DNA of 64,000 bases from Takakia lepidozioides (Eukaryota > Plantae > Bryophyta). Positions within the stretch are counted from its first letter, which is position 1; each line of letters opens with the position of its first letter. Shown piece after piece: positions 1 to 47,664 of this stretch. The stretch covers positions 13,764,001 to 13,828,000 of the forward strand of contig CM060734.1 in NCBI GenBank assembly GCA_030704615.1, read 5' to 3'. Made by a program: the position numbers and the translations under genes. The notes beneath the pieces were generated by a model. That model was not told the origin of the DNA, did no database searches, and saw nothing but the letters and a program-made list of their open reading frames with translations.

Positions 1-610
1 GCATAACGGTCCCCCTTTGTTCTCCCAAAGAACCCTCCACCGATTTGGAACCAGCGGGAATTCCCTTTGGTAGTTGGCAGTCCGGAACAGCTCCCCACTC
101 TTTGGTCGCTTTCCGGCTCGCTCGCTTACTCACTAGTTTTTGGACACCAACGGGCTTGCACCGTTCTCGGGGTTACTACTCCCTATATATACTTCTGTAG
201 CTGTCCGCGGGGGTTTCACAACCAGCCATGCCATTTTATGGCGAACCACCACGAAAACCCTCGACTCCCGGTGATGAGTCGCGGTGAGTCTTGGCCCACT
301 CACCACAGCCACTATGGACCGTGATGAGTCCCAAGACTCCCCACGACTCCCACCACGAGGTCTCCGCCCCCATGGTGAGTCCTATGCCACCCCCACTAAG
401 TCTCGCTAAGCTACCACCACCCCTTGTGGAGCCACCCCCACCGCAACCCGGTGTGCGGGGCTCCACCTAGTGAGTGCCTCCGCCTCCTTGAGTGCCTTGG
501 GCACTCAAGGGTGCTTCAGCCCCCCATACCTATCGCTGCCGCTGCCCCCACCACAGGGGCAGCCCCTCATGTGTCCCGACCCCCTGCCCTCAAGGCAAAG
601 GGCCGCGACA
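1..610. mobile_element. Probable terminal part of an unrelated LTR nested into the RT of the Gypsy copy at 611
   Basis: Ends in ...GGCCGCGACA (CA) at 610. From 611 the sequence becomes collinear with the RT of the sister element (ggtgga-gtttgctcggtgctacatagatgac). TATA-like cctatatata at ~182. The other end and TSD lie outside the window. Confidence 0.45.
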
Positions 611-3066
611 GGTGGAGTTTGCTCGGTGCTACATAGATGACATCATCATCTTTAGTGCTACGGTGGAAGAGCATGAGAGACACCTTCAGGGGGTATTTGA
701 GCGCTTGAGGACGCACGGATTGAAGTTACATCCGGGCAAGTGCAAGTGTTTCCACAACCAGATTGAGTATCTGGGCCACATGATATATCCTGGAGGATTG
801 GGGGTACAGCAGACTAAGGTAGAGTCCATTGCACAGGTTCCACGCCCCACGGATGTGAGCCGAGTTCGAGCTTTCATGGGGTTAGCAAACTATTATAGAC
901 GGTTTGTTAAGGGATTTAGTGCCATTGCAAAGACTCTAACCAAGCTGACCAAGGTGGACCAGGAGTGGCAGTGGGAAGATGAGCAAGAACAAGCTTTTCA
1001 AGAGCTCAAGGCGAGGTTGACCTCGGCGCCCATCTTGAGACGACCTATCAGGGGGCGTCCTTTTCAGCTGCACACAGATTGGAGCATGCTGGGGCTTGGA
1101 GCGGTGCTCACACAGGTGGATGATGAGGGAAGAGAGTTCGTAGTGGCTTATGCTAGCCGCTCGAACAATGCTGCAGAGTCTAAGTATAGCTCATATGAGG
1201 GAGAATGCTTAGCGGCAGTGTGGGCCGTGGCACACTTCAGGTGCTATCTATACGGCAATCTCTTCACTCTTGTCACGGATCACCAACCACTCAAGTGGTT
1301 GATGGAGTCAGACAAGCTTACGGGGAAGCTTGCACGGTGGGCACTCATCCTTCAAGAGTATGACTTTCAGGTTGTGCATCGATCGGGTTTGGTCAATCGC
1401 AATGCAGATGGGTTGAGTCGCAATCCATGCATGAGCCAACAGGATGACATTGGAGCTCGGTGGCATGGTGAGACGGACGAGGAGATGGTGCTCGGATGGC
1501 ATGCATCCGCATTTCTGTGTATCTTGGCAGCGGAAGGCCAGGTTGGACCTGCAACAGGGATGACTGTAGATCAAGTGTCTGAGGACCCTGAGGCCAGCAA
1601 TGAGCAAGGTGGCGCCAAAGATATACATGAGGATTCAGTTGTGTTGGACTACCTCCGCACTGGAGACACTGCAGCCACTGTGACTGCCAAGGAGAGGGAT
1701 CGGATCCTACAACAAGCCAAGAGGTTCAAGTGGGAGGGGACACACCTGCTCCGAGTGTGGGAGGATGGTCAAGTGAGGATTGTGCCTCACCCAACACAGC
1801 GGGCACGGTTAGTGCGGCATGCCCATGAGGAGTTGGGGCATTTTGGGGTGCGACGCACTCATAGTCTACTGCAGGGGAAGTATTGGTGGCGTGGTATGCA
1901 CACAGAGGTGCAACAATTTGTGGCTAGGTGCATGGTGTGTGACAGGGTGCATGCTTCATTCAACGCCCTTACTCCACAATTGCACCCTCTTCCGATCATG
2001 GGATTGGGCTACAGGTGGAGTCTTGACTTTGCAGGGCCGTTGCCACTGACCATGCGCCACAACAAGTACGTGTTGGTGATGGTGGAGCACTTCTCCAAGT
2101 GGATTGAATTGGTTCCATTGCCTGATAAGGCTAGTGAGGGAGCTGCGTATGCATTCTTGGATTGTGTGCTTAGCCGATTCGGTGCTCCAGCTGAGGTACT
2201 CACGGACCAAGGGAGAGAGTTCTTGGGGGAGTTTCAGGCTTTGTGTGACAAGGCCTTGATAGACCACCGCACCACTTCTCGGGATCATCCTGAGGCCGAT
2301 GGCTTGGCAGAGAGAGTTGTTCAGACAGTAAAGAGGGGTTTGCGCAAGTATGGCTTGCAGAAGGGACACCTAGGAGATTGGGACCTTCAGTTACCCTGGT
2401 TAGCCATGGGCTACAGGTTCAGCAAGCAAGCATCACTTGCCTCCTTCTCACCATACTTTCTTCTCTTTGGCCGAGAGCCGGATTTGCCTACATCCATTCG
2501 CAGAGAAGCTGCTACAGTTCTTAACCTTGACGATCCAGACGTGTGGGCACGTGCATGTGAGCAGTGTGCAGAGTTGTTCAAGAGAGTCATGCCCATGGCT
2601 TTCGAGAACCTTGCCATTGCACAACACCGTGATACGTTGAGGTATGCTACCATACGTGGTGGGGGCTATCGTCCTGGGGTTCGGAGATTCAACCCTGGTG
2701 ACTATGTCTATCTACAGCAGACTGCTCCTACGACCCTGGATGTGACTGCAGGACGTGTTATTTTGAGGGTTCGAGAGGTCTTGCCCTCAGGCGTCTTGGT
2801 CTTGGAGGGTCGGGATGGCATAACTTGGAAGGACCATGTGCGTAATTGTGCGCCATGTCACCTTCCGAATGTCGATGGCAGGATTGACCCAAACCTGGCA
2901 GTGGTATCTGCAAGTTTGAGGTGCATGTTGTGTGGGTCTGCTAAAGGGGCAGCCACCATGCTGGTGTATGATCGATGCTCTAGAGGTTGGCATATGGGAT
3001 GCTTGACTCCACCTCTTGAGATGGTTCCAGATGGGGATTGATTATGTCCACATTGCATTGGATAGT
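611..3066 (+). pseudogene. pol: pol fragment: RT C-half, RNase H, integrase, PHD finger
   Basis: YIDDIIIF; TDWSMLGLGAVL, YSSYEGECLA, TDHQPL, NADGLSR; HHCC (HEELGH...CMVC); LDFAGP/TDQG/AER (D,D,E). PHD CMLC...DRC...HMGC is broken by TGG>TGA at 3039-3041 and a C>Y change. The ORF-track N-terminus (492-610) is read-through from foreign DNA. Confidence 0.95.
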
Positions 3067-3310
3067 GGGAGTGGATACAACCATGGAAGGCTAACAAGAA
3101 ACGCAAGGCCTAGCTACTAGGAGACCTTGAACACACGAGATTCTGGCTCAAGTTCACAGATTGCAAGACGGCGACTAACGATGGGGCTACTCTTGTACCC
3201 AGCCTCTTGGTCTATAGAGTTTGAGTACAATAGGGACAGTGATAGAGGACTTAGTACGGCTGTGGCTATTACATCTTGTAGCTATCTGGAGGTAGAGGGA
3301 CCTATCCACC

Positions 3311-3321
3311 AGCTAGGGGGG
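3311..3321 (+). promoter_or_regulatory. Polypurine tract
   Basis: AGCTAGGGGGG just before repeat A; same motif at 6473-6484 on the minus strand in copy 2. Confidence 0.75.
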
Positions 3322-3324
3322 CGA

Positions 3325-3855
3325 TTGTGGCAGACTACTTTATTGTGCATATATGTGTGGTGTGGTTTGGTCAGCGATGTAGTTGTGTAACGATATGTAT
3401 GCGCACGACAGCTGTCAAGTTAAATAAGCACAGTGTGAAAACAGCTAGAATAAAACTAGTTATTTGTATTTAACACTTGGATTTAGGTCAAGTGTTAAAT
3501 CAGGTGTCAAGTTTAGTTTGACACCTGGTCCGTCTTATCTTCAGGAGAGCGGCAGTCGCGCAGCTCATCTCTCTCGAGTTGAGCCTGCGCGACCGAGCTC
3601 CTTCATCGCTTCAGATCTGAGTGTGCTTATGATGAGAGTGTAGGTTGTTGTGGGGTGGAGTCCCCATAGCTTGGGGTGCCCCTGGCTCGACTATTATCTT
3701 AAAGAGTGATGCTGTTGGATTCATGTTGTTTTCTTGTGTAAACAGTGCGTTTTCCTAGTTTTCTTATCATTATGGCAGACTACTTTATTGTGCATATATG
3801 TGTGGTGTGGTTTGGACAGCGATGTAGTTGTGTAGCGATATGTATGCGCACGACA
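3325..3855 (+). repeat. Split terminal repeat block A1 (3325-3410) - GC - B (3413-3769) - A2 (3770-3855)
   Basis: 86-bp A repeated directly around a 357-bp B; A|B junction GACAGCTGTC. Confidence 0.92.
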
Positions 3856-4194
3856 ATGGGGATATCATCAAAGTTGGAATTGTACCAAATGTCATTCTGA
3901 ACACTGCCCTGGCAGCTCTGAAAAAGGGGAAAGAGGTCCGTGGCGACATCTTCAAAGCTGGAATTGTACCGAATGTCATTCTGAACCATACCCTGGTGGA
4001 CATGTATGCAAATTGTGGGTGCATCGAGCCCTGGAGTAGGGCAAAGAGGTGCATGGGGATATCATCAAAGCTAGAATTGTACCAAATGTCATTATGAACA
4101 TTGCCCTAGCAGCTCTGGAAAAGGGCAAAGAGGTCCATGGCGACATTGTCAGAGCTGCAATAGTACCAAATGTCATTATGAACAATACCCTCAT
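3856..4194 (+). pseudogene. Tandemly duplicated PLS-class PPR motif fragments
   Basis: GKEVRGDIFKAGIVPNVILNHTLVDMYANCGCIE; four copies of the (H)GDIxKAGIVPNVI segment, with frameshifts. Confidence 0.8.
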
Positions 4195-4252
4195 AGAGAG
4201 AGATGACTCCGGCTTGCAGCCGGCGTAACTAAGTGCCACTTCACCTTGCGGC

Positions 4253-5229
4253 TGTCGAATGGCTTTTACTCACCCATCCCTTCACTATCCGAGGTCGGAA
4301 CTCCAAGATAGAAGAGTTGGATATCTCTATGCACTCAGCCCGCTCAGAACAATCAGTCATGACCTACAGCTAGTGTATCATGGTAGTGCTTCCTGTTTGT
4401 ATTCCTTCTTGCCTTCATGTCAGCAAGTTATCTTACTGTTTATATTTAAGTATCAGATTGCTTCGGCAATCCACCAGGTTCCAATCACTTTTCCATTCAT
4501 TCCACAGCTTCCCTCAGGTCTCTCTACACAATGTGAGTATGGAATATGTATCAGATTAAGTTATATCAAGTAACAGGCTGTAGCCATGGTATCTCTAATC
4601 TGCTCTACAGTTTCACCCTACAGCTTTGCATGTATCAAGCATCTACAGATCATCTCTCCTCCTTCACTGTGCTCTCCATTCTTGCTCCCGTTCGTGCACT
4701 TCGCCTGATCTCCTCTACTGATGACCAAGAAGTGCTCTCTCAGAAGTGTCCCCCATGTTGCTGCTATGCCTAATTTATCTGCAAGCTATTCTAACCGCCT
4801 AACTAACTAACTGTCACCCAAGAAGTAAGCACGTTCCCTATGCAGATGTCGTTCCCACACAGTCATTTTCTGCAAATGATAACCGTTCCCTATGTACGTT
4901 GTGATGGGCTGTGCCAAGCTGCTGTGCCGAGCTGTGACTGGTTGTGTCGGACTGTGTTGGGCTATGACTGGCTGTGTAAAGCTGTGTCGGGCTGTGTCGT
5001 GCTGTGACTGGCTGTGCGAAGCTGTGTCGAGCTGTGATAGACTGTGATAGGCTGTGATTGACTGTGACAGACTGTGTAAGGCTGTGTCGGGCTGTGGAAG
5101 ACTGTGCAACCTTGTGTACCACCCCCTAAGCCTGTGTTGGTCTAAGTCTACCATCGTAGGTCTGCGCAAAAATTAAGGGTACCCCATAGAACCCGAAAAA
5201 CTGTCTAAGTCCCAGATAGCCCTCTAACA
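4253..5229 (-). mobile_element. Solo LTR with 5-bp TSD
   Basis: TG...CA ends; GCGGC at 4248-4252 and 5230-5234; homologous to the LTR at 32342-32962; GGCTGTG-type array at ~4900-5110. Confidence 0.92.
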
Positions 5230-5357: not shown

Positions 5358-5807
5358 TCAAGAGGTCAAAGAGGTATGCGACTCAAGTTGTCTTTTGTTG
5401 GTGATAATAGCAGTGAGGGAACGGAGTGCCGTCCTGTAGATAGCTTTAAAACATTTGTGGATAGGGATAAGTGGGATTTTGAAGTTATTGTGAAGGGCAG
5501 AGATACTGGCATTGTGTATTCCACCCCGTGTGCCAGCTGTAATGACTATTAGGGGGCCGGTAGACCAACCATGACGGCGAATAGCTTGAATGAGTGGGAC
5601 ATATTTTTGGCGTTTTTCAAGTATGGAGGAGGGGGGGTAGCGGTCATTACAGTATGTAAACTCAATGAAGTGTGTAGTGAATTCAGGGGATGGTATGCTA
5701 GGAGGTGAGGTGCCGATAGGCAACCCGAGCACCAGGAGGATGTCGGGGCAGAGTCGGGCAGGGCATGCGCAGGGGAAGCGGGGTCTACACGAGCATGGTA
5801 GTAGCCA
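5358..5807 (-). pseudogene. Restriction-like endonuclease C-terminus of the non-LTR element
   Basis: CPDILLV...FIEFTYC...EKRQKYVPL...GW...VITAGTRGGI, the PD-(D/E) RLE pattern of R2/NeSL/Dualen-type elements. Confidence 0.8.
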
Positions 5808-6470
5808 TGTCGTGCGCATACATATCGCTACACAACTACATCGCTGTCCAAAAACCACACAACACATGTGCACACCACACACTAGTATACCACTAGTCCA
5901 CCACTAGTCCAACCACTAGGCTACAACTAGTCAGTCACTAGGCTGCCACTATGCTGCCCACTATGGCAGTCACTAGTCCACACAATGATAAAGAAGAAGA
6001 ATACAAGCACAAGCTCATGTGAGCTCACAAAGCTGAAGCATAAACTCATGCATATATAACCTCATCACTCAAATACAAGTCAAGCCAAGTGCACCCCACG
6101 CCATGGGGAATCCACACTACGGCGCCATAGCTAGGCGCGGTGAGGCTCAACTCGAGAAAGATGAGCCTTCCGCGCTTGCCGTGAAGATAACCACTCCAGG
6201 GCCTAAATCTGCCTTGACCCCTGGATTGACACTTGGGCCAATCCCAAATGTCAATATGTAAAAGCTAGCTATTTCCTAGCTAATTTCACACTAGTGGTAA
6301 AATAAGTTGACAGCTGTCGTGCGCATACATATCGCTACACAACTACATCGCTGTCCAAAAACTACACAACACATGTGCACACCACACACTAGTATACCAC
6401 TAGTCCAACCACTAGGCTACAACTAGGCTGCCACTATGCTGTCCACTATGGCAGTCACTAGTCCACACAA
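5808..6470 (-). repeat. 3' block A1 (6470-6315) - GC - B2 (6312-5986) - A2 (5985-5808)
   Basis: A1 and A2 are direct repeats (A2 is 22 bp longer through short tandem duplications); B2 (327 bp) is nearly identical to 17511-17837. Confidence 0.93.
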
Positions 6471-6728
6471 TTGGCCCCCTAGCTGGTGCTTAGGTCCCTC
6501 TAAGTCCAGGTAGCCACAAGATGTGATAGTGACCATAGCCTCACTAAGTCCTCCACCACTATCCCTACTACACTCAAACTCGATAGATCAAGAGGCCGGG
6601 TGCAAGAGTTGCCCCATCGTTAGTCGCCGTCTTGCAACTGTGAACTTGAGCTTGGGATCTCATGTATTGACTCCTATGAGCTTGGCCTCCCATGTCTTGT
6701 TAGCTGCCTCCAGTCATGTCCACTGCCA

Positions 6729-9700
6729 CTATCCCAAGCAGCGTGGACACAACCAATCTCCGTCAGGAACCTTCTCAAGAGGTGGTGTCAAGCATCCCAT
6801 ATGCCAACCCCTTGAGCATCGATCACACACCAGCATGGTGGCTGCCCCTTTGGCAGACCCACAGAGCATGCACCTCAAACCTGCAGGTACCATTGCCAAG
6901 TTTGGGTCAACTCTGCCATCGACATTGGGAAGGTGACATGGCGCACAATTACGCACATGGTCCTTCCAAATCATGCCATCCCGACCCTCCAAGATCAGGA
7001 CCCCTGAGGGCAACACCTCTCGAACCCTCAGAATAACACGCCCTGCAGTAACATCCAGAGTCGTAGGAGCAGTCTGCTGCAAATAAACATAGTCACCAGG
7101 GCTAAACCTCCGAACCCCAGGACGATATCCTCCACCACGTATAGTAGCATACCTCAACGTATCACGGTGTTGTGCAATGGCAAGGTTCTCAAAAGCCATG
7201 GGCATGACTTTCTTGAACAACTCTGCACGCTGATCACATACATGTACCCACACGTCCGGATCGTCAAGGTTAAGGACTTGAGCAGTGTCCCTACGAAATG
7301 GTTGCAGGCAAATCCGGCTCTCGGCCAAAGAGAAGGAAATATGGTGAGAAGGAGGCAAGTGATGCTTGTTTGCTGAACCTGTAGCCCATGGCTAACCAAG
7401 GAACCTGAAGATCCCAATCTCCTAGGTGTCCCTTCTGCAAGCCATACTTGCGCAACCCCTCTTCACCGTCTGAACAACTCTCTTTGCTAAGCCATCGGCC
7501 TCAGGATGATCCCGAGAAGTGGTGCGGTGGTCTATCAAGGCTTTATCACACAAAGCCTGAAACTCCCCCAAAAACTCTCTCCTTGGTCCGTGAGTACCTC
7601 AGCTGGAGCACCAAATCGGCTAAGCACACGATCCAAGAATGCATACGCAGCCCCCTCACTAGCCTTGTCAGGCAATGGAACCAACTCAATCCACTTGGAG
7701 AAGTGCTCCACCATCACCAACACATATCTGTGGTGGCGCATAGTCAGTGGCAACGGTCCTGCGAAGTCAAGACTCCACCTGTAGCCCAATCCCATGATTG
7801 GTAAAGGATGCAACTGTGGTGTAGGGGCGTTGAATGAAGCATGCACCCTGTCACACACCATGCACCTAGCCACGAACTGTTGCACCTCTGTATGCATACC
7901 ACGCCACCAATACTGCCCCTGCAATAAACTGTGAGTGCGTCGCACTCCAAAATGCCCCAACTCCTCATGGGCATGCCGCACTAACCGTGCACGCTGTGTG
8001 GGGTGAGGCACAATCCTCACCCGACCATCCTCCCACACTCGAAGTAGGTGTATCCCCTCCCACTTGAACCTCTTGGCTCGTTGCAGGATCCGATCCCTCT
8101 CCCTGGCAGTCACAATGGCTGCCGTGTCTCCCATGCGGAGGTAGTCCAACACAGCCGAATCCTCATGTATATCTCTGGCACCACCTAGCTCATCACTAGC
8201 CTCAGGGTCCTCAGACACTCCGTCTACAGTCATCCCTGTTGTAGGTCCAATCTGACCTCCTGATGCCAAGATACACAAAAATGCAGATGCGTGCCATCCC
8301 GGCACCATCTCCTCGTCCGTCTCACCATGCCACCGAGCTCCAGTGTCATCCTGCTGGCTCATGCATGGATTGCGACTCAATCCATCCGCATCCCGATTGA
8401 CCAAACCGGTCGATGCACAACCTGAAAGTCATACTCCTGGAGTATAAGTGCCCACCGTGCAAGCTTCCCCGTAAGCTTGTCTGACTCCATCAACCACTTG
8501 AGTGGCTGGTGATCCGTGACAAGGGTGAAAAGATTGCCGTATAGATAGCACCTGAAGTGTGCCACGGCCCACACTGCAGCTAAGCACTCTCCCTCATATG
8601 AGCTGTACTTAGCCTCTGCAGCGTTGTTCGAGCGGCTAGCGTAAGCCACTACGAACTCTCTTCCCTCATCATCCACCTGTGTGAGCACCGCTCCAAGCCC
8701 CAACATGCTCCAATCCGTATGCAGCTGAAAGGGACGCCCCCTGATAGGTCGTCTCAAGATAGGCGCAGAGGTCAACCTCGCCTTGAGCTCTTGAAAAGCT
8801 CGTTCCTGCTCATCTTCCCACTGCCACTCCTGGTCCACCTTGGTCAGCTTGGTTAGAGCCTTTGCAATGGTACTAAATCCCTTGACAAACCGTCTATAAT
8901 AGTTTGCCAACCCCATGAAAGCTCAAACTCGGCTCACATCCGTGGGGCGTGGAATTTGTGCAATGGCCTCTACCTTAGTTTGTTGTACTCCCAATCCTCC
9001 AGGATATATCATGTGACCCAGATACTCAATCTGGTTGTGGAAAAACTTGCACTTCCCCGGATGCAACTTCAATCCGTGCGCTCTCAAGCGCTCCAATACC
9101 ACCTGAAGGTGTCTCTCATGCTCCTCCATCGTAACACTAAAGATGATGATGTCATCTATGTAGCACCGAGCAAACGTCCACCCCTGCTAGAATCCTATCC
9201 ATGACTCTCTGAAACTCTGCAGGAGCATTCTTAAGCCCAAATGGTAAGAACCGCCACTGGTATAGGCAATCCTTGCCGTGCTCATTGATCCCCCAGAATG
9301 CCGTCTTCTGCTTGTCCGCCTCCTTGATTGGCAACTGGTGATATCCGGATTGTAAATCGAAAGTGCTAAAGGCCTTAGCATGCCCGATGGCATCAAAGAT
9401 CTCCTCTGGTGTTGGCATGGCATACTTATCGGACTTGGTCTGACGATTTACAGGCCGGTAATCACCGCACATACGTCTCTCCGTCCAATTGCCATAGACA
9501 TCCTTCTTGGTTGGCATCACTGTGGCTGAAGCATACTCTCCACCAGAGAGCTCCACCAAACCTGCCTCCCAGAGATCTTGAGTCCTCATCTGAATCAAAG
9601 ACCTCTCCATGTCACTGTATCTATAGGGTCTCCGAAAGATTGGCGTGTCAGTGGCCAACTCAATACGGATCTCTTGACCCTTCAGTGCTCCCAAGTCCTT

Positions 9701-9760
9701 CAAACTGAAGGCAAAGCAATTCCTGTAAGCCCTCAGGAACCGCCGTATACGTCGTCTCTC
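6729..9760 (-). pseudogene. pol: pol: RT, RNase H, integrase, intact PHD finger (several frameshifts)
   Basis: RRPYRYS, RMCGDYRPVN, DLQSGYHQ, LPFGLKNAPAEFQR, YIDD; RNase H and IN motifs as in copy 1; CMLC-x11-CDRC-x4-HMGC-x14-CPRC. Confidence 0.95.
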
Positions 9761-10169
9761 TCCTCCGGTGACAATGGGTCCAATGTCAGGCTCCCAATTG
9801 TCCTCCGTAACTACAACCTTAAGTATAGTGGGCTTAGAGGTAGAGGACGCGTCCCGTGGTTGCTATGCTGCAACCTCTTGAGCAGTACTCCCTGCCTGCT
9901 CAGTCAATGACAAGACCTCATCCTGCCCCATCATCTCATCATTGAGGACCTCCTCAACCCGAGAAGAATCCCCAACCTCATCTATCACAGCCGCCTTGGC
10001 TGCCAACTCCCTCTGAACCTCGAGCACCTCCCACGTGTGCCATGGATGCATGCACCCCGTGGTCCTTATATGCTCGCCCCCACTCACTGCCTGTACCGTC
10101 TCGGTAGGCAGAGAGACCATTGAGGGAAGTGTACTCCGCACTCTGCGTTGCTCAGCCAGAGCCAAGCTG

Positions 10170-11115
10170 ATAATCCAGGTCAAGCAATTGAGATCCATTG
10201 CTTGCCCCAACACTTGACGACGTGATGCCTCAGAAAGAGACGACACCGCCGTGGTACCAGTGGTAAAACCCATTGCCCGCTCACGCTCGTCAGCATTAGG
10301 CTCCACTAACTGCTGCAACTGAGCATCCCACAGGAGGCCAGGTCCACTATCCCGGAAAGCATGCGATCATGGGAAGCTGAGCAGTGTAGGTAATGTTGCC
10401 CGTGGTTGACCCACCTTGTTGACCACTGCCAAAGGCGAACGGTCATCGTGTCTCACACGCTGAGACTGCCTCCCTGTGTCCAGAATGTTATCCACTGTGA
10501 GATGTGCTGGCCGCTGCACCCCATCAAATGCACGCTTGATCAGTGCGGGTGGCATCAAGTTAGTCCACCATAGCCGTGGACGATGAGCTTGTGACCCCAC
10601 TGTAGCTGCATCTAGCAACACTACTGACCCAAGCCACGACCGGACTTGATGCACACTGGCCATCACCCTGGCCCGAGAATCGCCCATCAGTGGCACATTC
10701 TCCAAGATGTATGCTGGAGATACAGCTTGATGAAGCTGCAAGTGGCGCAAAACCCGCACCATCTCCCAAAACAGACCCGACCTCGAGTCTCGCAATCCAT
10801 TGCCATGCCTGGCTGATGAATGCCTTGGCAGGGCCAACCTGCCACTACCAGATCAATGGAGCCAACCCGCTCCAAATCCTGCGCCCCAGCAACGAAATGT
10901 CTGCTGGCAAGGCCTGCTGATATCCACGAATTGCAGACACCGACAACAACTCAGGGTACCACTGCACCAACTGAGCAACATGGCGAAGTGAAACCCGTCG
11001 TGCAGTCTCATCCCTCTCCACATACAGGTAACGCCAAACTTGTACACCTGCTTGTAACACAGCAGCCAATCCGGTGCTGATCCCGCCAAACAAGTCCAGA
11101 AGACAAATGCCTTCA
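10170..11115 (-). pseudogene. C5 cytosine DNA methyltransferase domain (DNMT3-like) between protease and RT
   Basis: In order: I LDLFGGI, II YVERD, III ADIS, IV AGWPCQG, V RSGLFWE, VI LENVP, VIII DAATVGSQAHRPRLWWTN, IX ERERAMGF, X RRQVLGQAMD. Split over four ORF-track pieces by indels. Confidence 0.92.
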
Positions 11116-11519
11116 TCCGGATACTGCCACACAATAGGTGTGGTGTCCAATGGAGACAATTGAGGTGGTCCTGGTGCAATCCCCACACTCTCCTCCTCTC
11201 CTGACGGTACAAAAGCCTCCACCCAAGCTTGTTGCACCCGTCGATTAGCATCCCGCTGCAAATCCTTGCTCGTGCCCCACAATGGAGTCTGAGCAACCAT
11301 GGTAGGCAACTCCGCCATACCATACATGTCATCCTGCTCTCCCGGAGGTGGTACATCCTCTGAATGAGCATTGCCCTCAAGCAACTCTCTAGGCCAACTC
11401 ACTGCCGTTGTGAATGCTACTAGTGTCGGCATCTTGCCTCGCTGGGCAACTGCAACTCCTCCTATGAACGTCACAGGGAGCTGCACACGCCGGACCTCCC
11501 CTGACTGCCATGTAGACCT

Positions 11520-11920
11520 ATAGGAAGCTGACTCCTCCCAAAAATCCAAGGTGAAGCCCATGGGGTACAACACTGCCCCACCAACCAGGACATCGTATGA
11601 GACTGCGTCTGTCACAATGTCCTTGGCTCGCATCACTGAGCCACCTGTAGGGTGATCCGGCCGTAGTCTGATAGCCAACTCACACCGTGTCATGCCCCGA
11701 GCCTACTCCGATCCTCCCAGAGATGTCTGTATCTGGAAAGGACAAGGCTCCAATCCGCCTCCGTGAGGCCAAGCCTGCAATAGCAGCTCTGCCCAGCATC
11801 AATGGCTGTGCTCCCGAGTCCAACAAGACCCGCAGTGGCCGGTACCTCTTGCCTGCCGGTCCACTCAAATAGAAAATGCCATCCTGGTTGTCTAACATGA
11901 CAACTCCAGGTGTCACGCGC
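11520..11920 (-). pseudogene. Retropepsin-like aspartic protease
   Basis: RVLLDSGAQ catalytic motif and downstream YDVLVG; one frameshift. Confidence 0.85.
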
Positions 11921-12559
11921 TCAATGGCTGGCCTAGCTGGCAGCTCCATCAACCTGGCAGCTGCAGATTGCCATGCCGCCGCCGTGGCAGTCTTAACCCT
12001 CAAATCCGAGGACCCCTCCGGCACTACACCTCCTACTATCTCCGCAGAAGATGAAGTAGTAACTCCCCACTCTCACAGAGTGTAGCTGCAGCCTGAACAC
12101 CTCAGCTGGTCTTACCCCCGGCGTCGTAATCATGGGTAGCGAGAGAACAATGGAGCTGGCACACACAATGTGGCCGCTCCTAGCAGCACACTAGCTGCCG
12201 TAGCCTTGGAAACACTAGGTAGTGGTGCTACCCGTTGTAGCTCTCCCCAATGGCATAGTAACCTCCGCCTCGAAATCAGTCGGGCGAGAACTAGGTGCCA
12301 TGGATGGCGTCGACACTGTCTCCGCCAATGTGAATGACTGAGGAAAGCCTAGCCTGACGGTTTGCCTCCCCACGCTGTGGATCCAACTACACCTCTGCAC
12401 CTCGTGGCTCAGGAAACGCGTGCTGCTCCTCGAGTCACGGGCATTGCAGCAGACTCCACCTGCACTAGTGGTAGTGCTGCTCCACAGCATGAATCCCATG
12501 CCTCCCATATCTCCTCCCTCAGGAGCAGGAGGTGGACCATCCGGCCTTAGAGCCAGTAC

Positions 12560-13155
12560 CACCTGAGCTGTAGCCATGGCAGCGAGCCTCTGCTCTAGCT
12601 GCTGAAGCCGGTTGGCCATGCCTTGGTCAACACCTGACCTCCGCGTCCTTGGCCACGTTGAGCTTGCCCTTGGCCTCGTGGCTGGCCACCTCGTCCTCTC
12701 TGGGCTGCTCCACCTCGCCCCGGCCATACCATTGTTCCCTTGGAACTGGCCTGGGCGCAACTCAGAATGCAAACCATAACACTGGGCCTCTCCATGTCTG
12801 TGCTTGCCACAATGCCCACACTGCAACTGTGCAGGCTGTGCATGTGCCGACCTTTGCCTCCCTCTGGGCAATCCTTCTTGACATGGGGTCCTCCACATGT
12901 CCAGCACACACATCCGCCCGTTGTTGGCCAGAAATGAAGGGGAGAGACCCCTGCATCTGAGGTCCTCTCTGCCTTCCCTGAGCTTCACATGAGCCCCCTT
13001 GTTGCCTTGAGCACGTGAGGTAGTGGGTTGGCTAGGAGCACCACTACCCCGTGGTGTCTCCTTAGCAAATCCCACCATGACCACTCGTTCCTCCAACATG
13101 TTGAGCTCTATCCACTCTGCCAGCAAAAACACATTTGCTAAGGTGGGTTGGGCCG
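12560..13155 (-). pseudogene. gag: gag C-terminal part with two zinc knuckles
   Basis: CWTCGGPHVKKDC and CGHCGKHRHGEAQC followed by an RGG-rich tract; frameshifted. Confidence 0.8.
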
Positions 13156-13159
13156 CTTG

Positions 13160-13580
13160 TGGCGAGCTGTGATAGGCTGTGGCCTGTGCCCTGTGGGGCT
13201 GTGACGGGATGTGTCAGGCTGGTGGCAAGAGGGGGAGGGGCTGTGAGGGCTTGTGAAGGCCGTGCCTGAGGCCTTTGAGGCGTGACGGGCGTGTGAGGGG
13301 CTATGACAGGCTGTGCCCAGGCCTTTGGGGCTGTGATGGGGCTGTGAGGGGCTGTGACAGGCCGTGCCTGAGGCCTTTGAGGCTGTGTGACGGGAGTGGG
13401 AGGGCTTTGTTTGTGACAGGCAGGTGCATGAGGCCTTGGGGGATTGTGCACGGGAATATTGTTCGTGAGGGGCTGGTGACAGGCCGTGCCTGAGGCCTTG
13501 GGGCTTGCTGTGTGACGGGCTGTGAGGGGCTGTGACAGGCAGTGCTGAGGCCTTTGGGGTTTGTGACGGCTATGACCAGT
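13160..13580 (+). repeat. GGCTGTGA-based tandem array (inverted part of the 5' UTR array)
   Basis: Repeated gctgtga/ggccgtgcctgaggccttt units; reverse complement of 15230-15985. Confidence 0.85.
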
Positions 13581-14539: not shown

Positions 14540-15225
14540 GTTGTGGGACACAATGGAGGAGATGTATGGAGCTACCAAGGGGCCACGAAGGTACTCTGGA
14601 GCGGTGGGCACCATCGAGTTGGATGATTTTATCCAAGATTTGATCGTTGGTGTGATTGCAGCAGCAAATGCGCAATCCACAACTATTTAGCCTTTCATGG
14701 CTGGAAAGGTTGGTGTTGTTTCAGCACCTTGAGGGGCCGCCTATGGATGATTACACATGAGTTCAGGCGGGGGCATGAGGTTGAGGTTGAGAGAGAGTGG
14801 AGGATTGTACTGGTCACCAGGACTATGTCTCCATCACTAGGGGCACTAGAGCCACAGAGGGGCAGTGGCTACACCTGCCGCTGCACCGGCAGCTTCGCAA
14901 GCAGCAGTGGACTGGTGGTACAGTAGCTACGACATCCACCCAAGCCACTACCGCACCAACACTAGCACCGTGCCTGCCTTCAACCCTGTTGTGGAGTTCT
15001 TCTTGAGAGTAGAGTTGAGAGGGAACTACCAAGGGGTTGCGGAAAGAGAAGTTGCGGAGCTTGCAAAGAGTTCCAACGGAAGCCGACCGAGAGCTGAGGG
15101 AGGCTTTCACTCGATGAGGCGCTTGATAAATGTAACCCAAGGGGTTACGGACGCTCAGGCAGCCAATTCTGGTATGGGATATTGGACAAGGAGCTGAGGA
15201 GAAGGGTGCGGGATTGCAACTTCCG
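14540..15225 (+). pseudogene. gag: gag N-terminal/capsid part, inverted relative to its element
   Basis: Stitched across indels: ELDDFIQ..DRWCD..., LFQHLEG, NPVVEFF, MRRLINVTQGVTDAQA, ELRRRVRD. This plausibly continues into QPTLANVFLLAE at ~13150 on the minus strand. Confidence 0.65.
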
Positions 15226-15229
15226 TCAC

Positions 15230-15985
15230 AGGCCCTCATAGACCCCGTCACAGCTTTTGCCACAGCCTGTCACAGCCCAAAGGCCTCAGGCACGGCCTTG
15301 TCACAGCCCCTCACAGCCCGTCACAGCCTCAAAGGCCTCAGGCACGGCCTGTCACAGCCCCCCTCACAGCCCATCACAGCCCAAAGGCCATGGGCACGGC
15401 TGTCATAGCACCCACAGCCCGTCACAGCCTCAAAGGCCTCAGGCACGGCCTGTCATAGCACCCACACCCCTCCTCACAGCCGAAACAGCCCGTCACGCCC
15501 CAAAGGGCACAGGGCACAGCTTGTCACATCTCGCCACAGCTGTTACAGCCCCTCATAGCCCGTCACAGCTTGCCACAGCCTGTCACAGCCCATCACAGCC
15601 CCAGAGGCCACAGGGCACAGCCTGTCACAGCCCCTCACAGCCCTCACAGCTCGCCACAGCCTGACACAGCCCCACAGGCCACAGGGCACAGCCTGTCACA
15701 GCCCAGCACAGCCCGTCACAGCCCCAGAGGCCACAGGGCACAACCTGTCACAGCCCCTCACAGCCCCTCACAGCTCGCCACAGCCTGACACAGCCCCACA
15801 GGCCACAGGGCACAGCCTGTCACAGCCCCGCACAGCCCGTCACAGCCCCACAGGCCACTTGGCACAGCTGTCACAGCCCCTCACAGCCCGTCACAGCTCG
15901 CCACAGCCTGACACAGCCCGTCACAGCCCCACAGGGCACAGGGCACAGCCTGTCACAGCCTGTCACAGCCCGTCACAGCCCCACC
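15230..15985 (-). repeat. (TCACAGCC)n array in the Gypsy 5' UTR
   Basis: Dozens of cacagcc units with higher-order repetition. Confidence 0.9.
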
Positions 15986-17498: not shown

Positions 17499-17510
17499 AT
17501 CTTTCTCGAG
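17499..17510 (-). promoter_or_regulatory. Self-priming PBS
   Basis: CTCGAGAAAGAT directly follows B1 and is the exact complement of ATCTTTCTCGAG inside B1 (17676-17687); no TGG tRNA PBS. Confidence 0.85.
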
Positions 17511-17837
17511 TGATAAAGAAGAAGAATACAAGCACAAGCTCATGCGAGCTCACAAAGCTGAAGCATAAACTCATGCATATATAACCTCATCACTCAAATA
17601 CAAGTCAAGCCAAGTGCACCCCACGCCATGGGGAATCCACACTATGGCGCCATAGCTAGGCGCGGTGAGGCTCAACTCGAGAAAGATGAGCCTTCCGCGC
17701 TTGCCGTGAAGATAACCACTCCAGGGCCTAAATCTGCCTTGACCCCTGGATTGACACTTGGGCCAATCCCAAATGTCAATATGTAAAAGCTAGCTATTTC
17801 CTAGCTAGTTTCACACTAGTGGTAAAATAACTTGACA
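17511..17837 (-). repeat. 5' terminal repeat B1 (327 bp)
   Basis: Near-identical to 5986-6312; starts TGTCA, ends TTATCA. Confidence 0.95.
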
Positions 17838-20140
17838 GCCATGTGGCCACCGTGTGGTCGGGAGGTCTACCCTAGTAGGTGCCTGCATTGATGAGGGAGA
17901 ACCAACGTGTTTCAGGTCTATTTAGGAGGAGTTTGTGGATGTGCCAGATGGCATGGTTATGTTGGGTGACTCTGAGGCCATGAATGATAGGGTGTGTGCA
18001 GAGGCTAAGCAAATGTAGCCATGTATCCCGGGTCGGGTGTGTGTTCGCACATAGCGGGCAATTTGGGGAGGGATAGAAACGTGGCCAGAAGGTATGTTTA
18101 CGTTGGTGGCCCATGTATTGGGCATATCTGAATTTGAGAGTCTGCCTGATTTGGGCATCTGTGGCGATATTGGTGCGCCAGAAATGGTTAGAAAATTTAT
18201 GATGAAGAACCTCCGAGTGTGTCCATTTCTGGACATGTAGCTTGGTGAGGCTGGCGGAGGTCGAGGCTTGTTTATGGGCTTCGCGGGTAAGGGTGGTTGA
18301 GAGATTGCGGATAAGGCGAGGCAAATTGGGACCTGGAACTGGGTGGATGAACCAGAAGGGGTGGGTATGGGCAACGTGTATGGGTTCTGACGTAGGGTTC
18401 ACCTCGGGACAGGTAGCCCCTTTCTGGGCAAAGAAGTCGGCCATGTCGTTACCGGTGATGCCGGTGTGGGAGCGGACTTTAATGAAGTATATGGGTTGGT
18501 CTAAGGAGATGGCAATATGGGCAATGGCAGATATAAGGTTCCTGTCGGAGTGGTAATGGTAAGAGGAAGGGCGGGAGAGGTGGTTATGGATGAGAAAGAG
18601 TGAGGTGAGGCTGTCGGTAAAGATGTAGTGTGGGGGGAAAATGAGGAGAGTTGGGTAATGGCATCATGAATGGCCATGAGCTCGGCTCGGAGGATGGTGG
18701 CCGGGCCTGGAAGACGTAGGGCGATTCCTTGGTTGGTAGCGGCATGGTATATGCCGTAACCAGCCCGGGGACCAGCAATGAGGGAGCCATCCGTGTAGTG
18801 GGAGTGGGCAGGTGGGTATTTGAGAGGAAGTTTCGTGCGAGAAACTAGCGGATCCGTGGGGATAGTTGGGATAGGGGGGATGGGTGGGCGGGAAAGCATT
18901 TGACACCACGACTTAGTTGCTTTAATGTGAGGAATGGGACGCATGGGGCGAGGGGTGCCGGGGAGAGTAGGGGGGGTCGGGAAAAAAGTGGCCTTCAGGC
19001 CATGCGTCTATGTGAGAAGGTGGAGAAGGGCGATCTGGGAAGGTATTGGGTATGATGGTAGAGAAGGTGGGGCGGTGGACCAGCAGAATGAGGGTTAAGG
19101 TAGGTTCTTTGTGTTGTAGATATTTGGGGAGGGGCTGGGTGCGCGAATATTGGAGTTGCCCTGGGTCAATAGCGGCTAGGGGCGTGACTCCGGGCGGCAG
19201 TTGGTGGAGGGGGTGTGGACCATTGGGCATTTGTTGGTGAGAGAGGAGGAGGATGGTGGCATTGGAGGGGGATGACTATGCCGCGAGCCGTGCCCATTGA
19301 AGTGCGTCTTGTAGATGGGGCCCTTGGGGGGGGTGTGCAAGGCCATGGCTAGTCCAGGTATCCTGGGATGCAGAGCCGATGGCTCCAAAGAAATAGTCTC
19401 TAGGGTGAGGGCTAGAGTATGACGAAAGCGTCATAGGGCATGTAAGCGGGCTAGAATAGTAGGAGTGTGTAATGTGAAAGGATTCTATAAGGAGTATTAG
19501 GATGTCCGGAGGAAGAGTAGTATGTGACTGGGCTAGAGATAGCTTGATAAGGGAGCGGGGTTTTTTGAGGGGGGTATCGGCTAGATACCGTTCAGCTAGC
19601 CAGCAGACTTCTGTTGCAAAGTCCTGCCGTGTTGGCGAGAATTGACTAGGTGAGGGGGAAGAGGTAGAAAATCTATGCCAGAGCCAAGAGAGGCGGTCGT
19701 TTGGAATAAGGCCTATGTAGCGGCCGTTGGAGGCGTATAATTTGGACATGCGGGATCCTGTGCAAATGATGGGGGTGGTGTAGGAGATGTCTTTATTGGG
19801 GTTGCATTCAGCAATGCAAACATGCATTATGAGCAAGAAGGGGGGTATGGACGTATCGGGCGTCTATTGGTTGGGGTGGGGAGGTGTGTTGCTGATGGAT
19901 ATGGGTTAGGTAGTTGGTATTGGTGGATTTATGAAAAGCAATGAGGAGGTCAAGGTTATGGTCTGGGTTGCAATCATCGTGAGATCCGAATAGGTCATCC
20001 TCCGATTGCCAGATGTTGTCTTCCGATGGGTATCCGGCCCACTTGCAGAGATAGAAGCTATCCAGACATAGGGCGCCGAATTCGTCAGTTGTGGTTTGGG
20101 TTCTGATTCCGAGGATGTCTTTGATGGTGAAGGCTTCCGG
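17838..20140 (-). pseudogene. Non-LTR ORF: chromodomain, PCIF1-like segment, RNase H, CCHC finger
   Basis: FTIKDILGIR...YLCKWAGYPSEDNIWQSEDDL; YSSPL...YSS...RDYFFGA; YTDGS...RAELMAI...FTDS...KVRSHTGITGNDMAD; CPLC...HLLSLC...QHN. Stops and frameshifts present. Confidence 0.82.
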
Positions 20141-20269
20141 GTTGTCTGGGTTCGTATATTGAAGAATGAGTGGGGGGGTTGAGCAAGTAGGGGATATCCA
20201 AGTAGGGGGGGGGGGGGGGGGGGGGCGGGGAGGGTTAGGTTTGGGGAGGTTTGCTCAAGCAATAGATAA

Positions 20270-22880: not shown

Positions 22881-23749
22881 ACGACACCAACCTTAGTTTC
22901 ATTTTCAATCTACTGCCGAGGTTATGGAGGCCCTTGAGATAATCTCTCCCTCCCCCTCTTCCGACTATCTCTCTCTGTGGGGCAGGAACAAGGAGTGCAA
23001 CAAAACCTTGGTATAAACAAATGTTCAGGCTTTCCAGATTTCTTCTATAAAGCCTTTCACACAGGCATGAATTTGCTGTATGGGCAGCCCTCAATTCGGA
23101 CCCAAGAGGGTCAGGATTTAGGCTCGGCCTTCAGATTTTCAAAGTTTGCGAGCAGAGGTGAAGAGTCCATGTTTTGATGATCCTGAAGAGGGTCTACCCA
23201 CTTCATTTTCAGATGACAGTCCTCTATGCACTTGGAAGATCTAGAACTTATTTGTCTTTCAAGCTCAATCCTTGTCTTGGAAGTTGTCCTTTGAGTTCTT
23301 GTCTTTGGAGCTTAGTTTGCACCTTGGAAATGTAGTCCTTAAGCTAAAAGGTCAGTCCATATGCTAGAGGATGAGTTCAGTTTTGCAAGTTTGATTCAAG
23401 TGTAGGAATGATCGTCCATTTTTGGTAGTCTAGTTTGTTTCTTGGAAACATAGTCCTATTATTGGAAGTCATGTCAGTTGCTGGGAAACACTATCCTTTT
23501 TTTGGAAGTCAAGTCTGTAGCATGGAAACATTGTCCATTTTTTTGGAAGTTGCGTTAGTCCAACAGTACTCTAGTCCTTTCTAAATAGGACTTCATTCCA
23601 CTTTAGGAGTGAGGTCCTATTGGAGGAAGGTCAATCCTTCATCTGGAATATGTGAACTTTCTATGGACAATTATTCCATTGGATAGAAAGTCATTCCTTT
23701 TGCTGTACGTTTGGTCCTTTGTCTCATTAATCAGCTTATGTTTGTTCAG

Positions 23750-24560
23750 GTTTGTGAACATGTATGTCTCATTCAGATGCCGTTTTACAAAAGCGTATCC
23801 CTTGATTGATGTTGGGTTGCGTACATTCGAAAAGCTCAAGCCATATTTTGTGAGAAAGCTGAAAGATGGGAATACATGTTGCTGTAAATACCATGTTGAG
23901 ATGGATGAATTGAAAAAATGGTACAACAACATGAGATCCATCGACAATGGAGTGCATGGCGCGCAATGTTCTTGTGATTGCTTTGCAATATGCTCACCTC
24001 CTCATGCCACCGTGTCTTCAGCATCCTCGTCTTCTGCTCGTTGTTGCTTTGCTGTGGAGAAGGTCCATAAGGGGGTTACAACATTATGGTAGCAGATTGT
24101 GTGTTCTAGACCTGAGGAGGAGTTATGGCATAAACAAAAGTGTTTGCTTGGGCAATGTACTCAGTGTAGGATTAAGACCTTGCCTCTTTGTCCCAAAGAA
24201 GTAGACAACTCTCAAGAGGCTCTAGTTCATTGGCGTTGTTTTCAAAAAGTGGCGGTTGGGAAAACAAAGGTGGGTGATCCTAAAAGGGTTACTAGACTTG
24301 AATTGAAGACCACAACTTCAGCTGAATTTCTGTCCTACCTGAAACCCAAGCTTCAAAAATTTGTGGCGCATAATTACATTGCGAGGTGGCAAGACAAAGA
24401 ATTCAAGTTGTGTCTGCAAAGTATTCCTGAAGGTGTTGTGGTATCTGTGATAGATTTTGTAGAGAATTATTCTTTCAAGGAGCAGAACAAGATCCAAGAA
24501 ATGGTATTCCTTTCAGATTACCATTCTCGTCCACATCACGTACAGGTTGAACTGACAATG
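23750..24560 (+). pseudogene. Cys-rich DNA-transposase-like fragment (possibly Sola2-like)
   Basis: FEKLKPYFVR...TCCCKYH; CLLGQCTQC; FVAHNYIARWQ...VIDFVENYSF..Q..IQ. I recall DFxENY as the first catalytic Asp of a DDD transposase group; family uncertain. In-frame stop, truncated. Confidence 0.55.
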
Positions 24561-47401: not shown

Positions 47402-47602
47402 CTAGTATCTGTGTTGACTACCCTCCTTTTTCTATTTTTCTGTTGAGCTGAGCTGGGACGGAGCGGTAATTCACCCAGACGTCCTGTTGGTTGAGCACCG
47501 CGGGAGGGACCGTCAGGGGAAGGGAGCTGCCCTCCCCTTCCTTCTCTTCTCTCTCTTCTCCCTCTTAGCTCCCCTCCCCTCTGCGCCCTTCTTTCTTCTT
47601 AT

Positions 47603-47639
<37 letters not shown>

Positions 47640-47664
47640 CCGTGTGTTTGGCGACCGGGCAGTG

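What the first reader, a model, noticed from the sequence alone, without database searches (positions are those of the whole stretch)
10170..11115. Cytosine-5 DNA methyltransferase inside the Gypsy polyprotein
Seen: C5-MTase motifs I-VI and VIII-X in order, with the catalytic PC and ENV intact, between PR and RT; motifs VIII-X look DNMT3-like. Known (from memory): DNMT-carrying retrotransposons were reported in Symbiodinium and the charophyte Klebsormidium. The PPR context here suggests a land plant, which would extend that range. Inference: the enzyme would be packaged with RT/IN and could methylate the cDNA or circle before integration.
Basis: partly seen in the sequence, partly recalled or inferred. 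Interest (0 to 1): 0.88.

Follow-up and report, generated by a model that had tools for sequence, protein, structure and literature searches.

The report
Land-plant retrotransposon carrying DNMT3-like methyltransferase
This is a broken copy of an abundant Gypsy-type jumping gene, with close relatives in a liverwort and a peat moss, that carries a DNMT3-like DNA cytosine methyltransferase just ahead of a conserved, probably leaky stop codon, so the enzyme is likely made in bulk with the particle protein and likely methylates the element's own new DNA copies.

Summary
A DNMT3-like C5-methyltransferase domain (minus strand, about 11117-10169) lies between protease and RT of a 12-kb Gypsy-type element. 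This copy is dead as assembled (two frameshifts and a stop in the domain); other copies mostly lack these breaks, and relatives keep the catalytic residues under purifying selection.

It is the kind described in Klebsormidium (KnitGypsy-Dnmt3, 2018): same domain order, same A-coding-B-A-B repeats. Relatives carrying the domain occur in Marchantia, Sphagnum, Closterium and chlorophytes and form one RT clade. Ten paper searches found no report from land plants.

Two additions. (1) The domain ends a Gag-protease-MTase frame at a conserved stop with a TMV-type read-through signal (12 of 12 clean loci), so it would be made at Gag level. (2) The ends fit self-primed cDNA joined into a 2-LTR circle and opened at a palindrome inside the LTR, with 4-bp TSDs.

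This scan has already noted the family and the split ends in other genomes.

The parts
17838..17841 (-). 4-bp target-site duplication, 5' copy (TGGC)
17511..17837 (-). Repeat A1, 5' end of the element, begins TGTC; predicted to hold the promoter-proximal U3 part, R and U5
   Evidence: 98.8% identical to A2 over 329 bp; ends
17676..17687 (-). 12 nt complementary to the primer-binding site; predicted 5' end of the RNA (self-priming)
   Evidence: (0 of 1000 shuffles), fold z -6.55
17499..17510 (-). Predicted self-priming primer-binding site directly after A1
15244..15984 (.). Array of 10-bp units, inverted relative to the array at 13158-13569; an insertion or rearrangement of this copy
14553..15220 (+). 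N-terminal part of gag, inverted in this copy and frameshifted
   Evidence: tblastn of Marchantia P0005; collinear in related loci
13158..13569 (.). Second 10-bp array, interrupting gag
12089..13153 (-). C-terminal part of gag, with two Cys/His knuckle-like stretches seen by eye
   Evidence: no Pfam hit for 12734-13102
11517..11913 (-). Aspartic protease (LLDSGA at 11826-11809), frameshifted
   Evidence: own profile, motif; relative P0003 hits Asp_protease_2 at E 0.0012
10169..11117 (-). DNMT3-like C5 cytosine methyltransferase domain, motifs I-X in order; broken in this copy near 10884, near 10822 and at 10369-10367
9857..9865 (-). Conserved in-frame stop TAG followed by CAACCA (UAG-CAR-YYA read-through signal), between MTase and RT
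   Evidence: motif in PMC3159437
9010..9541 (-). Reverse transcriptase, frameshifted
   Evidence: PF00078 E 1.8e-14
8431..8820 (-). RNase H
   Evidence: PF17917 E 5.9e-37
7294..8002 (-). DDE integrase (H2C2 zinc finger and core), frameshifted
   Evidence: PF17921, PF00665
6738..6872 (-). PHD finger at the C-terminus of integrase
   Evidence: PF00628 E 3.8e-12
6472..6485 (-). Polypurine-tract-like stretch just before B1
6315..6470 (-). Repeat B1 (predicted outer U3 part), ends CGACA
6309..6318 (.). Palindrome GACAGCTGTC at the B1/A2 junction; its halves are the two ends of inserted copies
5986..6312 (-). Repeat A2
5808..5985 (-). Repeat B2, 3' end of the element, ends GACA
5804..5807 (-). 4-bp target-site duplication, 3' copy (TGGC)
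1..3855 (+). 3' part of a sister element (RT-RH-IN-PHD in an 849-codon open frame, then B-A-B with the same palindrome at 3407-3416); its MTase region would lie before the window start

Best explanation
The stretch is the DNMT3-like methyltransferase of a broken Gypsy-type element, and in working members of the family the enzyme is likely made in bulk as the tail of the Gag-protease protein, likely packed into the particle, and likely methylates the element's own new cDNA before insertion. Steps: (1) RNA likely starts inside repeat A and primes itself on the site after A1. (2) Most ribosomes likely stop at the conserved UAG after the MTase; a minority would read through into RT-RNase H-integrase-PHD, so MTase would be in excess over RT and integrase. 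(3) Reverse transcription would give a linear cDNA with B-A at both ends. (4) The ends would be joined into a 2-LTR circle, and integrase would open it at the palindrome inside the upstream LTR, which gives exactly the observed A-coding-B-A-B layout with TG..CA ends and a 4-bp duplication. (5) The MTase likely marks this DNA, probably at CG, so the new copy arrives pre-methylated; the PHD finger would help choose the chromatin site. Shown: domain identity, position, conservation, the stop and its context, the repeat anatomy. Inferred: read-through, packaging, activity, substrate, the circle.
For: Family profile ranks DNMT3A (E 8e-25) above DRM2 (3e-14), M.HhaI (3e-9) and DNMT2-type enzymes (1e-6). 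A model of natural relative P0006 (pLDDT 90) matches DNMT3A best; all 32 rows shown are DNMT3. Catalytic Cys in 138 of 139, Glu of ENV in 139 of 139, the two motif-VIII Arg in 137 and 136 of 139 domains. Window versus 20 related loci: dN 0.21-0.27, dS 1.7-3.1. One stop only between MTase and RT, followed by CAR-YY, in 12 of 12 same-frame single-stop rows, in five hexamer variants; UAG-CAR-YYA is the TMV read-through consensus (PMC3159437). Self-priming complement of 12-16 nt in 5 of 12 ends, with different sequences in three families. 10 of 10 resolved 5' ends start at TGTC without B; 4-bp TSD in 3 of 3 two-ended copies. A Symbiodinium retrotransposon DNMT3 methylates CG in yeast (PMC5890265).
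Against: No activity, expression or methylome data were obtained here. The nearest tested enzyme, KnitGypsy-Dnmt3, gave no methylation in yeast, which the authors call inconclusive. Motif IV reads EC instead of PC in 58 of 139 domains. Some relatives of the same domain order have MTase and RT in one uninterrupted frame (P0047, P0225, P0246), and 93 of 139 long relatives place the MTase between RNase H and integrase, so bulk production is not required family-wide. Among close copies dN/dS is about 0.5, as for the other domains. Self-priming complement was 9-10 nt in 4 and absent in 3 of 12 ends. A circle model does not explain why only the upstream palindrome is used.
Confidence: 0.5

Rival explanations
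1. The enzyme is active but works in the nucleus on chromatin: the insertion site, resident copies of the family, or competing elements. It would limit or tune transposition and not mark the cDNA.
For: Bulk production from the first frame does not imply packaging. Integrase carries a PHD finger. The 2018 paper lists host-level and self-limiting roles. The window copy's private transitions fall in CG/CHG in 22 of 27 cases against 36% background, so resident copies are probably methylated, by whatever enzyme.
Against: Fusion to Gag-protease or to Pol in nearly all long relatives is the usual route into the particle (general knowledge). Host MET1, CMT and DNMT3 already methylate moss transposons (PMC6453930).
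Confidence: 0.2
2. The domain is kept as a nucleic-acid-binding or RNA-modifying module and is not a DNA-methylating enzyme.
For: No activity for the Klebsormidium enzyme in yeast; PC to EC variation in 58 of 139; motif I matched my pattern in only 114 of 169 domains (the 55 misses were not inspected).
Against: Cys, Glu and both Arg are nearly invariant across chlorophytes and streptophytes; the DNMT3 fold is complete; DNMT2-type RNA enzymes rank far lower.
Confidence: 0.15
3. The MTase is part of the integration mechanism: it marks the CpG beside the internal palindrome so that one copy is cut and the other protected.
For: The B side of the palindrome reads CGACA in the window, the sister, L005, L023, L031, L037 and L041 and TGACA in one L028 copy; the A side has no CpG. 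Two palindromes would exist in a 2-LTR circle, yet 10 of 10 resolved 5' ends show the same isomer. MTase and palindrome occur together in both domain orders (L037).
Against: Pure inference. The CG may simply be an integrase contact. Co-occurrence reflects shared ancestry, and only one locus of the second domain order was available.
Confidence: 0.12
4. The domain is a passenger: a captured host gene piece or a nested insertion in this copy.
For: The copy is heavily broken and partly inverted.
Against: Same position in 45 long relatives from liverwort, moss and algae; contig cover across the domain like that of its neighbours in three runs; purifying selection; no introns or own terminal repeats seen.
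Confidence: 0.02

Closest known systems
KnitGypsy-Dnmt3 of Klebsormidium nitens (de Mendoza et al. 2018, PMC5890265; parts 1, 3 and 4 of 7, passages and a supplement word search read; figures not seen)
   Same: Intronless, unpermuted DNMT3-like domain in a Gypsy element; DIRS-like repeat layout; purifying selection. Klebsormidium protein P0248 has the same order PR-MT-RT-RH-IN, is 44% identical to P0006 over 260 residues and falls in the same RT-RH clade.
   Different: Close relatives here are in land plants. The paper calls it an acquisition in the K. nitens lineage, whereas the relatives span chlorophytes, zygnematophytes and bryophytes. Here a conserved stop separates MTase from RT. PHD has 0 occurrences in the paper's main text; read-through, self-priming and the palindrome are not in the parts I read.
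SymbioDIRS-Dnmt3 of Symbiodinium (same paper)
   Same: DNMT3-type domain in a retrotransposon with split repeats; shown to methylate CG in yeast.
   Different: Tyrosine-recombinase element; the MTase is only distantly related (P0262, E 2e-9, long branch).
EpiLTRs and DAM-LTRs (bioRxiv 10.64898/2026.05.21.726589; passages only)
   Same: LTR elements carrying DNA methyltransferases plus a chromatin reader. The preprint refers to 'streptophytes (Gypsy-DNMT3)' as known.
   Different: Their DNMT is sister to DNMT4 and comes with an adenine MTase and a chromodomain; 'Marchantia', 'bryophyt' and 'land plant' have 0 occurrences.
Tcn1/Tf1 self-priming chromoviruses (PMC6317226; passages and section 9 read)
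   Same: No tRNA primer site; predicted self-priming; occur in moss and club-moss.
   Different: They have a chromodomain and ordinary LTR ends; no MTase is mentioned in the passages read. Not compared in a tree.
Foamy-virus integrase cleavage of 2-LTR circles (PMC1180852; abstract only)
   Same: A DDE integrase cutting a palindrome in circular cDNA.
   Different: There the palindrome is the LTR-LTR junction; here it lies inside the LTR, and the junction stays in the inserted copy.
Cellular plant DNMT3 (PMC6453930; passages and section 6 read)
   Same: Unpermuted DNMT3-type domain; present in non-flowering streptophytes; de novo CG and CHH activity in moss.
   Different: Host genes with a C-terminal DUF3444; none turned up among the relatives retrieved here.

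Membership tests
C5 cytosine DNA methyltransferases (PF00145) | Profile match above the curated cut-off | tested here: met
   Window piece 22.3 bits, cut-off 22; relatives P0006 42.7 and P0003 46.1 bits
C5 cytosine DNA methyltransferases (PF00145) | Motifs I-X with catalytic Cys, Glu, Arg | tested here: met
   Window motifs; family counts. In different frames in this copy.
C5 cytosine DNA methyltransferases (PF00145) | SAM-dependent 5mC formation on DNA | not testable with these tools
   No assay; nearest tested enzyme negative and inconclusive
DNMT3 | Closer to DNMT3 than to DRM, DNMT2 or bacterial enzymes by profile and fold | tested here: met
DNMT3 | Unpermuted motif order (unlike DRM) | tested here: met
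DNMT3 | Branches with cellular DNMT3 in a tree | not tested
   No cellular DNMT3, DRM or DNMT1 sequence was retrieved as a usable protein; one search holds element sequences only
KnitGypsy-Dnmt3 kind | DNMT3-like domain, intronless, in a Gypsy coding region | tested here: met
KnitGypsy-Dnmt3 kind | Repeat layout A-coding-B-A-B | tested here: met
KnitGypsy-Dnmt3 kind | Purifying selection on the domain | tested here: met
   (between families about 0.1, dS near saturation; among close copies about 0.5)
KnitGypsy-Dnmt3 kind | Common descent of RT-RNase H | tested here: met
   79-row clade, SH-aLRT 100, holds window, Klebsormidium and all 48 MTase-bearing rows (quick tree, no named plant lineages as outgroup)
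KnitGypsy-Dnmt3 kind | MTase in the same open frame as RT | tested here: inconclusive
Ty3/Gypsy (Metaviridae) | Order PR-RT-RH-IN with DDE integrase, TG..CA ends, 4-6 bp TSD | tested here: met
Ty3/Gypsy (Metaviridae) | Two complete LTRs flanking the coding region | tested here: not met
   5' end has A only; 3' end B-A-B
DIRS/Ngaro split-repeat elements | Tyrosine recombinase in place of a DDE integrase | tested here: not met
   rve integrase present, no recombinase hit
Troyka | CG..CG ends, 3-bp TSD, ordinary LTRs, animals only | tested here: not met
   PMC12440569 parts 1-4 of 5
Tcn1 chromovirus | Chromodomain at the integrase C-terminus | tested here: not met
   PHD finger, no Chromo hit
Named plant Gypsy lineages (Tcn1, Phygy, Selgy, Chlamyvir, Athila/Tat) | RT tree position against reference elements | not tested
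   No reference set was available

The most novel reading that the evidence does not exclude
An ancient green-plant lineage of Gypsy elements, from chlorophytes to liverworts and mosses, integrates as a rule from a 2-LTR circle opened at a palindrome inside the LTR, and makes its own DNMT3 in bulk to methylate the CpG beside that palindrome and so decide which copy integrase cuts: a restriction-modification-like logic inside a retrotransposon.
Probability: 0.12. Interest if true: 0.92.

Novelty: new variant of a known kind. Interest (0 to 1): 0.6.

Why it matters
The role of retrotransposon-borne cytosine methyltransferases has been open since 2018, partly because the known hosts are hard to manipulate and the one Gypsy enzyme tested was silent in yeast. 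The same family sits in many loci of Marchantia polymorpha, a genetic model, which makes the question directly testable on natural copies. The predicted read-through stop says when and how much enzyme is made. The shared ancestry across chlorophytes and streptophytes replaces the picture of a one-off capture in Klebsormidium. Practical point: these loci are annotated as host 'DNA methyltransferase' or hypothetical genes, and tools that expect two full LTRs would likely miss their ends.

Tried and rejected
Troyka, recalled from memory as a split-repeat Gypsy: wrong, it has ordinary LTRs, CG ends and 3-bp TSDs. DIRS/Ngaro membership: no recombinase. Nested insertion or host-gene capture in this copy: rejected. 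Viral or prokaryotic relatives: none among 16 candidate stretches in viral contigs; 1 of 31 in prokaryote genomes, L041, which is a whole element of this family on a 9.3-kb contig of a cyanobacterial bin and most likely a eukaryotic contaminant; both scans used one or two short patterns and reach close relatives only. The feature search also listed phage MTase clusters at the same score as a streptophyte cluster, which does not discriminate. No whole genome is held for the window. No RNA holder was listed, and no RNA data were obtained, so expression is open. PPR-like pieces gave no PPR Pfam hit. A motif-I count and the motif-I rows were faulty and are not used; one search replaces them. In the MTase tree the window row began at 11063 and so lacks motif I. 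Ten paper searches found no report of this family in land plants, of the Marchantia gene ids, or of circle integration at an internal palindrome; the library lacks most subscription journals, searches match words only, and figures and bioRxiv supplements were not seen.

Full report
Observation. The minus strand of 11117-10169 encodes C5-methyltransferase motifs I, II, IV, V, VI, VIII, IX and X in canonical order, between a protease motif (11826-11809) and RT (from about 9541). The longest unbroken piece hits PF00145 just above its cut-off, and all 14 PDB sequences it matches at E up to 10 are DNMT3A. The domain is spread over three frames, with frameshifts near 10884 and 10822 and a stop at 10369-10367. 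The copy is also broken in gag, protease, RT and integrase, and the first part of gag is inverted between two inverted 10-bp arrays; related loci are collinear there.

The breaks belong to this copy. Laying contigs of four public runs on 9700-13150 placed 35,043 (X2), 28,704 (X1), 598 (X5) and 1 (X9) records; X1 and X2 are one sample. Cover over the MTase was like that over the protease and the spacer before RT (the tool warns that this is no copy number). At the internal stop about 99% or more of the depth in all four runs reads otherwise. At the two frameshifts all depth in X5 and X9, and 24-43% in X1 and X2, lacks the shift. Both shifts lie in short runs of one base, so assembly error is possible. 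Of 27 transitions private to this copy among the 40 rows shown (127 not shown), 22 are in CG or CHG context against 36% of cytosines overall, as expected for a methylated, decaying copy.

Identity of the domain. A profile of 35 natural relatives ranks DNMT3A/B/C first (E 8e-25 to 2e-19), then DRM (3e-14), M.HhaI (3e-9) and DNMT2-type enzymes (1e-6) among 57 PDB sequences matched. A model of relative P0006 (65% identical to the window piece) has pLDDT 90, and all 32 Foldseek rows shown are DNMT3, best TM 0.83 on the target. Among 139 distinct domains with an assignable domain order (of 169; 30 left out), the catalytic Cys is present in 138, the Glu of ENV in 139 and the two motif-VIII Arg in 137 and 136; the residue before Cys is Pro in 76 and Glu in 58. 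A tree with cellular DNMT3 could not be made.

Selection. Codon comparisons used 30 loci for the MTase after dropping six duplicate assemblies and loci covering under 60%. Of 29 window pairs, 7 were saturated; 20 pairs with the closest group gave dN 0.21-0.27 and dS 1.7-3.1, a ratio near 0.1 that is rough because dS is near saturation. The MTase is more conserved than the protease (dN 0.36-0.49 for that group) and less than RT-RH (0.14-0.21) and integrase (0.11-0.15). Among close copies (dS 0.1-0.3) ratios were 0.52 for MTase, 0.57 protease, 0.42 RT-RH and 0.38 integrase, as expected after insertion. Pairs are not independent.

Range. Searches returned 16 proteins, 558 cluster representatives at E up to 0.001 (150 listed) and 88 long proteins. 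Named carriers of the domain are Marchantia polymorpha (over a dozen gene models), Sphagnum fallax (P0254), Klebsormidium nitens (P0248), Closterium (P0048, P0343), Haematococcus, Chromochloris, Scenedesmus sp. PABB004 and, weakly, Tetraselmis. The nearest RT-RNase H sequences are from the liverworts Calypogeia fissa (80-81%) and Marchantia (76-77%), and a partial one from Riccia; the Calypogeia and Riccia models do not include the MTase region. Of 139 relatives of 900 residues or more, 45 have the MTase before RT, 93 between RNase H and integrase, and 1 alone. In the MTase tree the window groups with Marchantia and Sphagnum (12 rows, SH-aLRT 100). In the RT-RH tree (88 rows, a random subset of the unnamed ones) it groups with Marchantia and Calypogeia (99), and all 48 MTase-bearing rows lie in one clade (100) against animal and other Gypsy rows; the second domain order is one subclade (99). 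Both are quick trees with some long branches, the searches were seeded with this family, and no named plant lineage was included. A bryophyte-grade land plant is likely from these relatives; the PPR-like pieces are weak evidence.

The MTase ends the first frame. 101 codons after the domain the window has TAG CAA CCA (9865-9857) and then RT in the same frame. Of 38 rows in that call, 12 have MTase and RT in the same frame with a single stop between them (L004, L005, L014, L015, L023, L024, L025, L028, L034, L039, L041, window; L024 and L028 are one insertion). All 12 have CAR-YY after the stop, as CAACCA, CAACCC, CAACTC, CAACTA, CAGTTA or CAATCA; 11 have UAG and 1 UAA. Six more same-frame rows have this stop plus others; the rest are truncated or out of frame. 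Many called proteins end 74-149 residues after the MTase. UAG-CAR-YYA is the TMV read-through consensus (PMC3159437, passages). I infer Gag-PR-MTase as the main product and RT-RH-IN-PHD by read-through. This is not universal: P0047, P0225 and P0246 have no such stop.

The ends. The element runs 17837-5808: A1, coding region, B1, A2, B2, with TGTC..GACA ends and TGGC duplicated. L028 (AAGG) and L021 (CACA) also have 4-bp duplications. A purine tract precedes B1, and the 12 nt after A1 pair with a stretch inside A (0 of 1000 shuffles; fold z -6.55). Of 12 ends tested, 5 have a 12-16 nt complement, 4 have 9-10 nt and 3 none; the sequence differs among three families. So the LTR that RT would make is B plus A. 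The B1/A2 junction is the palindrome GACAGCTGTC, also found in the sister copy, L005, L028, L041 and L037 (second domain order), with one or two changes in L023 and L031. Joining the cDNA ends and opening the circle at the upstream palindrome gives exactly A-coding-B-A-B. All 10 resolved 5' ends (9 distinct loci and the window) start at TGTC without B; L018/L019 were unresolved, L008/L010 have only an inverted B upstream, and L012 ends at B without A. Foamy-virus integrase cuts a palindrome in 2-LTR circles (PMC1180852, abstract). The circle itself was not observed; L041 assembles as a circle, which a collapsed repeat also explains.

What is known. De Mendoza et al. 2018 described KnitGypsy-Dnmt3 with this repeat layout, purifying selection and no activity in yeast, called it an acquisition in the Klebsormidium lineage, and proposed cDNA methylation for the DIRS elements. 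A 2026 preprint refers to 'streptophytes (Gypsy-DNMT3)' without naming land plants in the passages found. Ten searches found nothing further (listed under Tried and rejected). Earlier notes of this scan report the same family in moss genomes and the permuted LTRs; the first of them led me to test the priming sites. None of the listed notes mentions the read-through stop in the lines shown.

Verdict. Real, and of a known kind; new in print, as far as my searches reach, are the land-plant and chlorophyte range, the likely Gag-level expression and the end mechanism. The best mechanism, methylation of the element's own cDNA, is inferred (0.5). Interest 0.6, mainly because Marchantia makes an open question testable.

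Noticed in passing
window 17875-20254 (-): Broken element beside the 5' end with a chromodomain (E 2e-6), a PCIF1-like domain (E 2e-5, possibly an adenine methyltransferase) and an RNase H; it looks like the 3' part of a LINE-type element with its own methyltransferase-like and chromatin-reader domains.
   Followed up: no
window 45653-57984: Two long minus-strand frames (518 and 671 codons, no Pfam hit) between 1.75-kb direct repeats, with a third direct and one inverted copy; RT-like motifs by eye and weak RT-bearing look-alikes. Probably a Penelope-like element.
   Followed up: partly
window 4900-5110, 13158-13569, 15244-15984, 32546-32962: Arrays of a 10-bp unit; two of them, inverted to each other, flank the inverted gag segment, suggesting a DNA transposon with sub-terminal arrays caused the inversion.
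   Followed up: partly
window 3852-4207 (+): Three short direct repeats that read like PLS-type PPR motifs by eye, broken, directly after the sister element's end; no PPR Pfam hit.
   Followed up: yes
window 59721-60722 and 62227-63228: 1,002-bp direct repeat at 99.3% identity, 2.5 kb apart.
   Followed up: no
window 23613-24566 (+) and 28999-29952 (-): A Cys-rich transposase-like piece (weak DUF6597) and a coiled-coil plus RING frame, possibly parts of one decayed DNA transposon.
   Followed up: no
L041 1-9285: A complete element of this family in a cyanobacterial genome bin, on a contig with 127-bp identical ends; most likely eukaryotic contamination and a collapsed repeat.
   Followed up: partly
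P0091, P0111, P0120: Relatives with extra domains: a Tudor domain after the PHD (P0091) and a G-patch between MTase and integrase (P0111, P0120).
   Followed up: no
window 17511-17839 versus 5986-6314: A1 and A2 are 98.8% identical, yet the coding region differs from most other copies at about 110 places in 3.45 kb: either a defective template was moved in trans or the assembly has errors.
   Followed up: no
window 58032-58041: A third GACAGCTGTC inside G/C runs, unrelated to the element and probably chance.
   Followed up: yes
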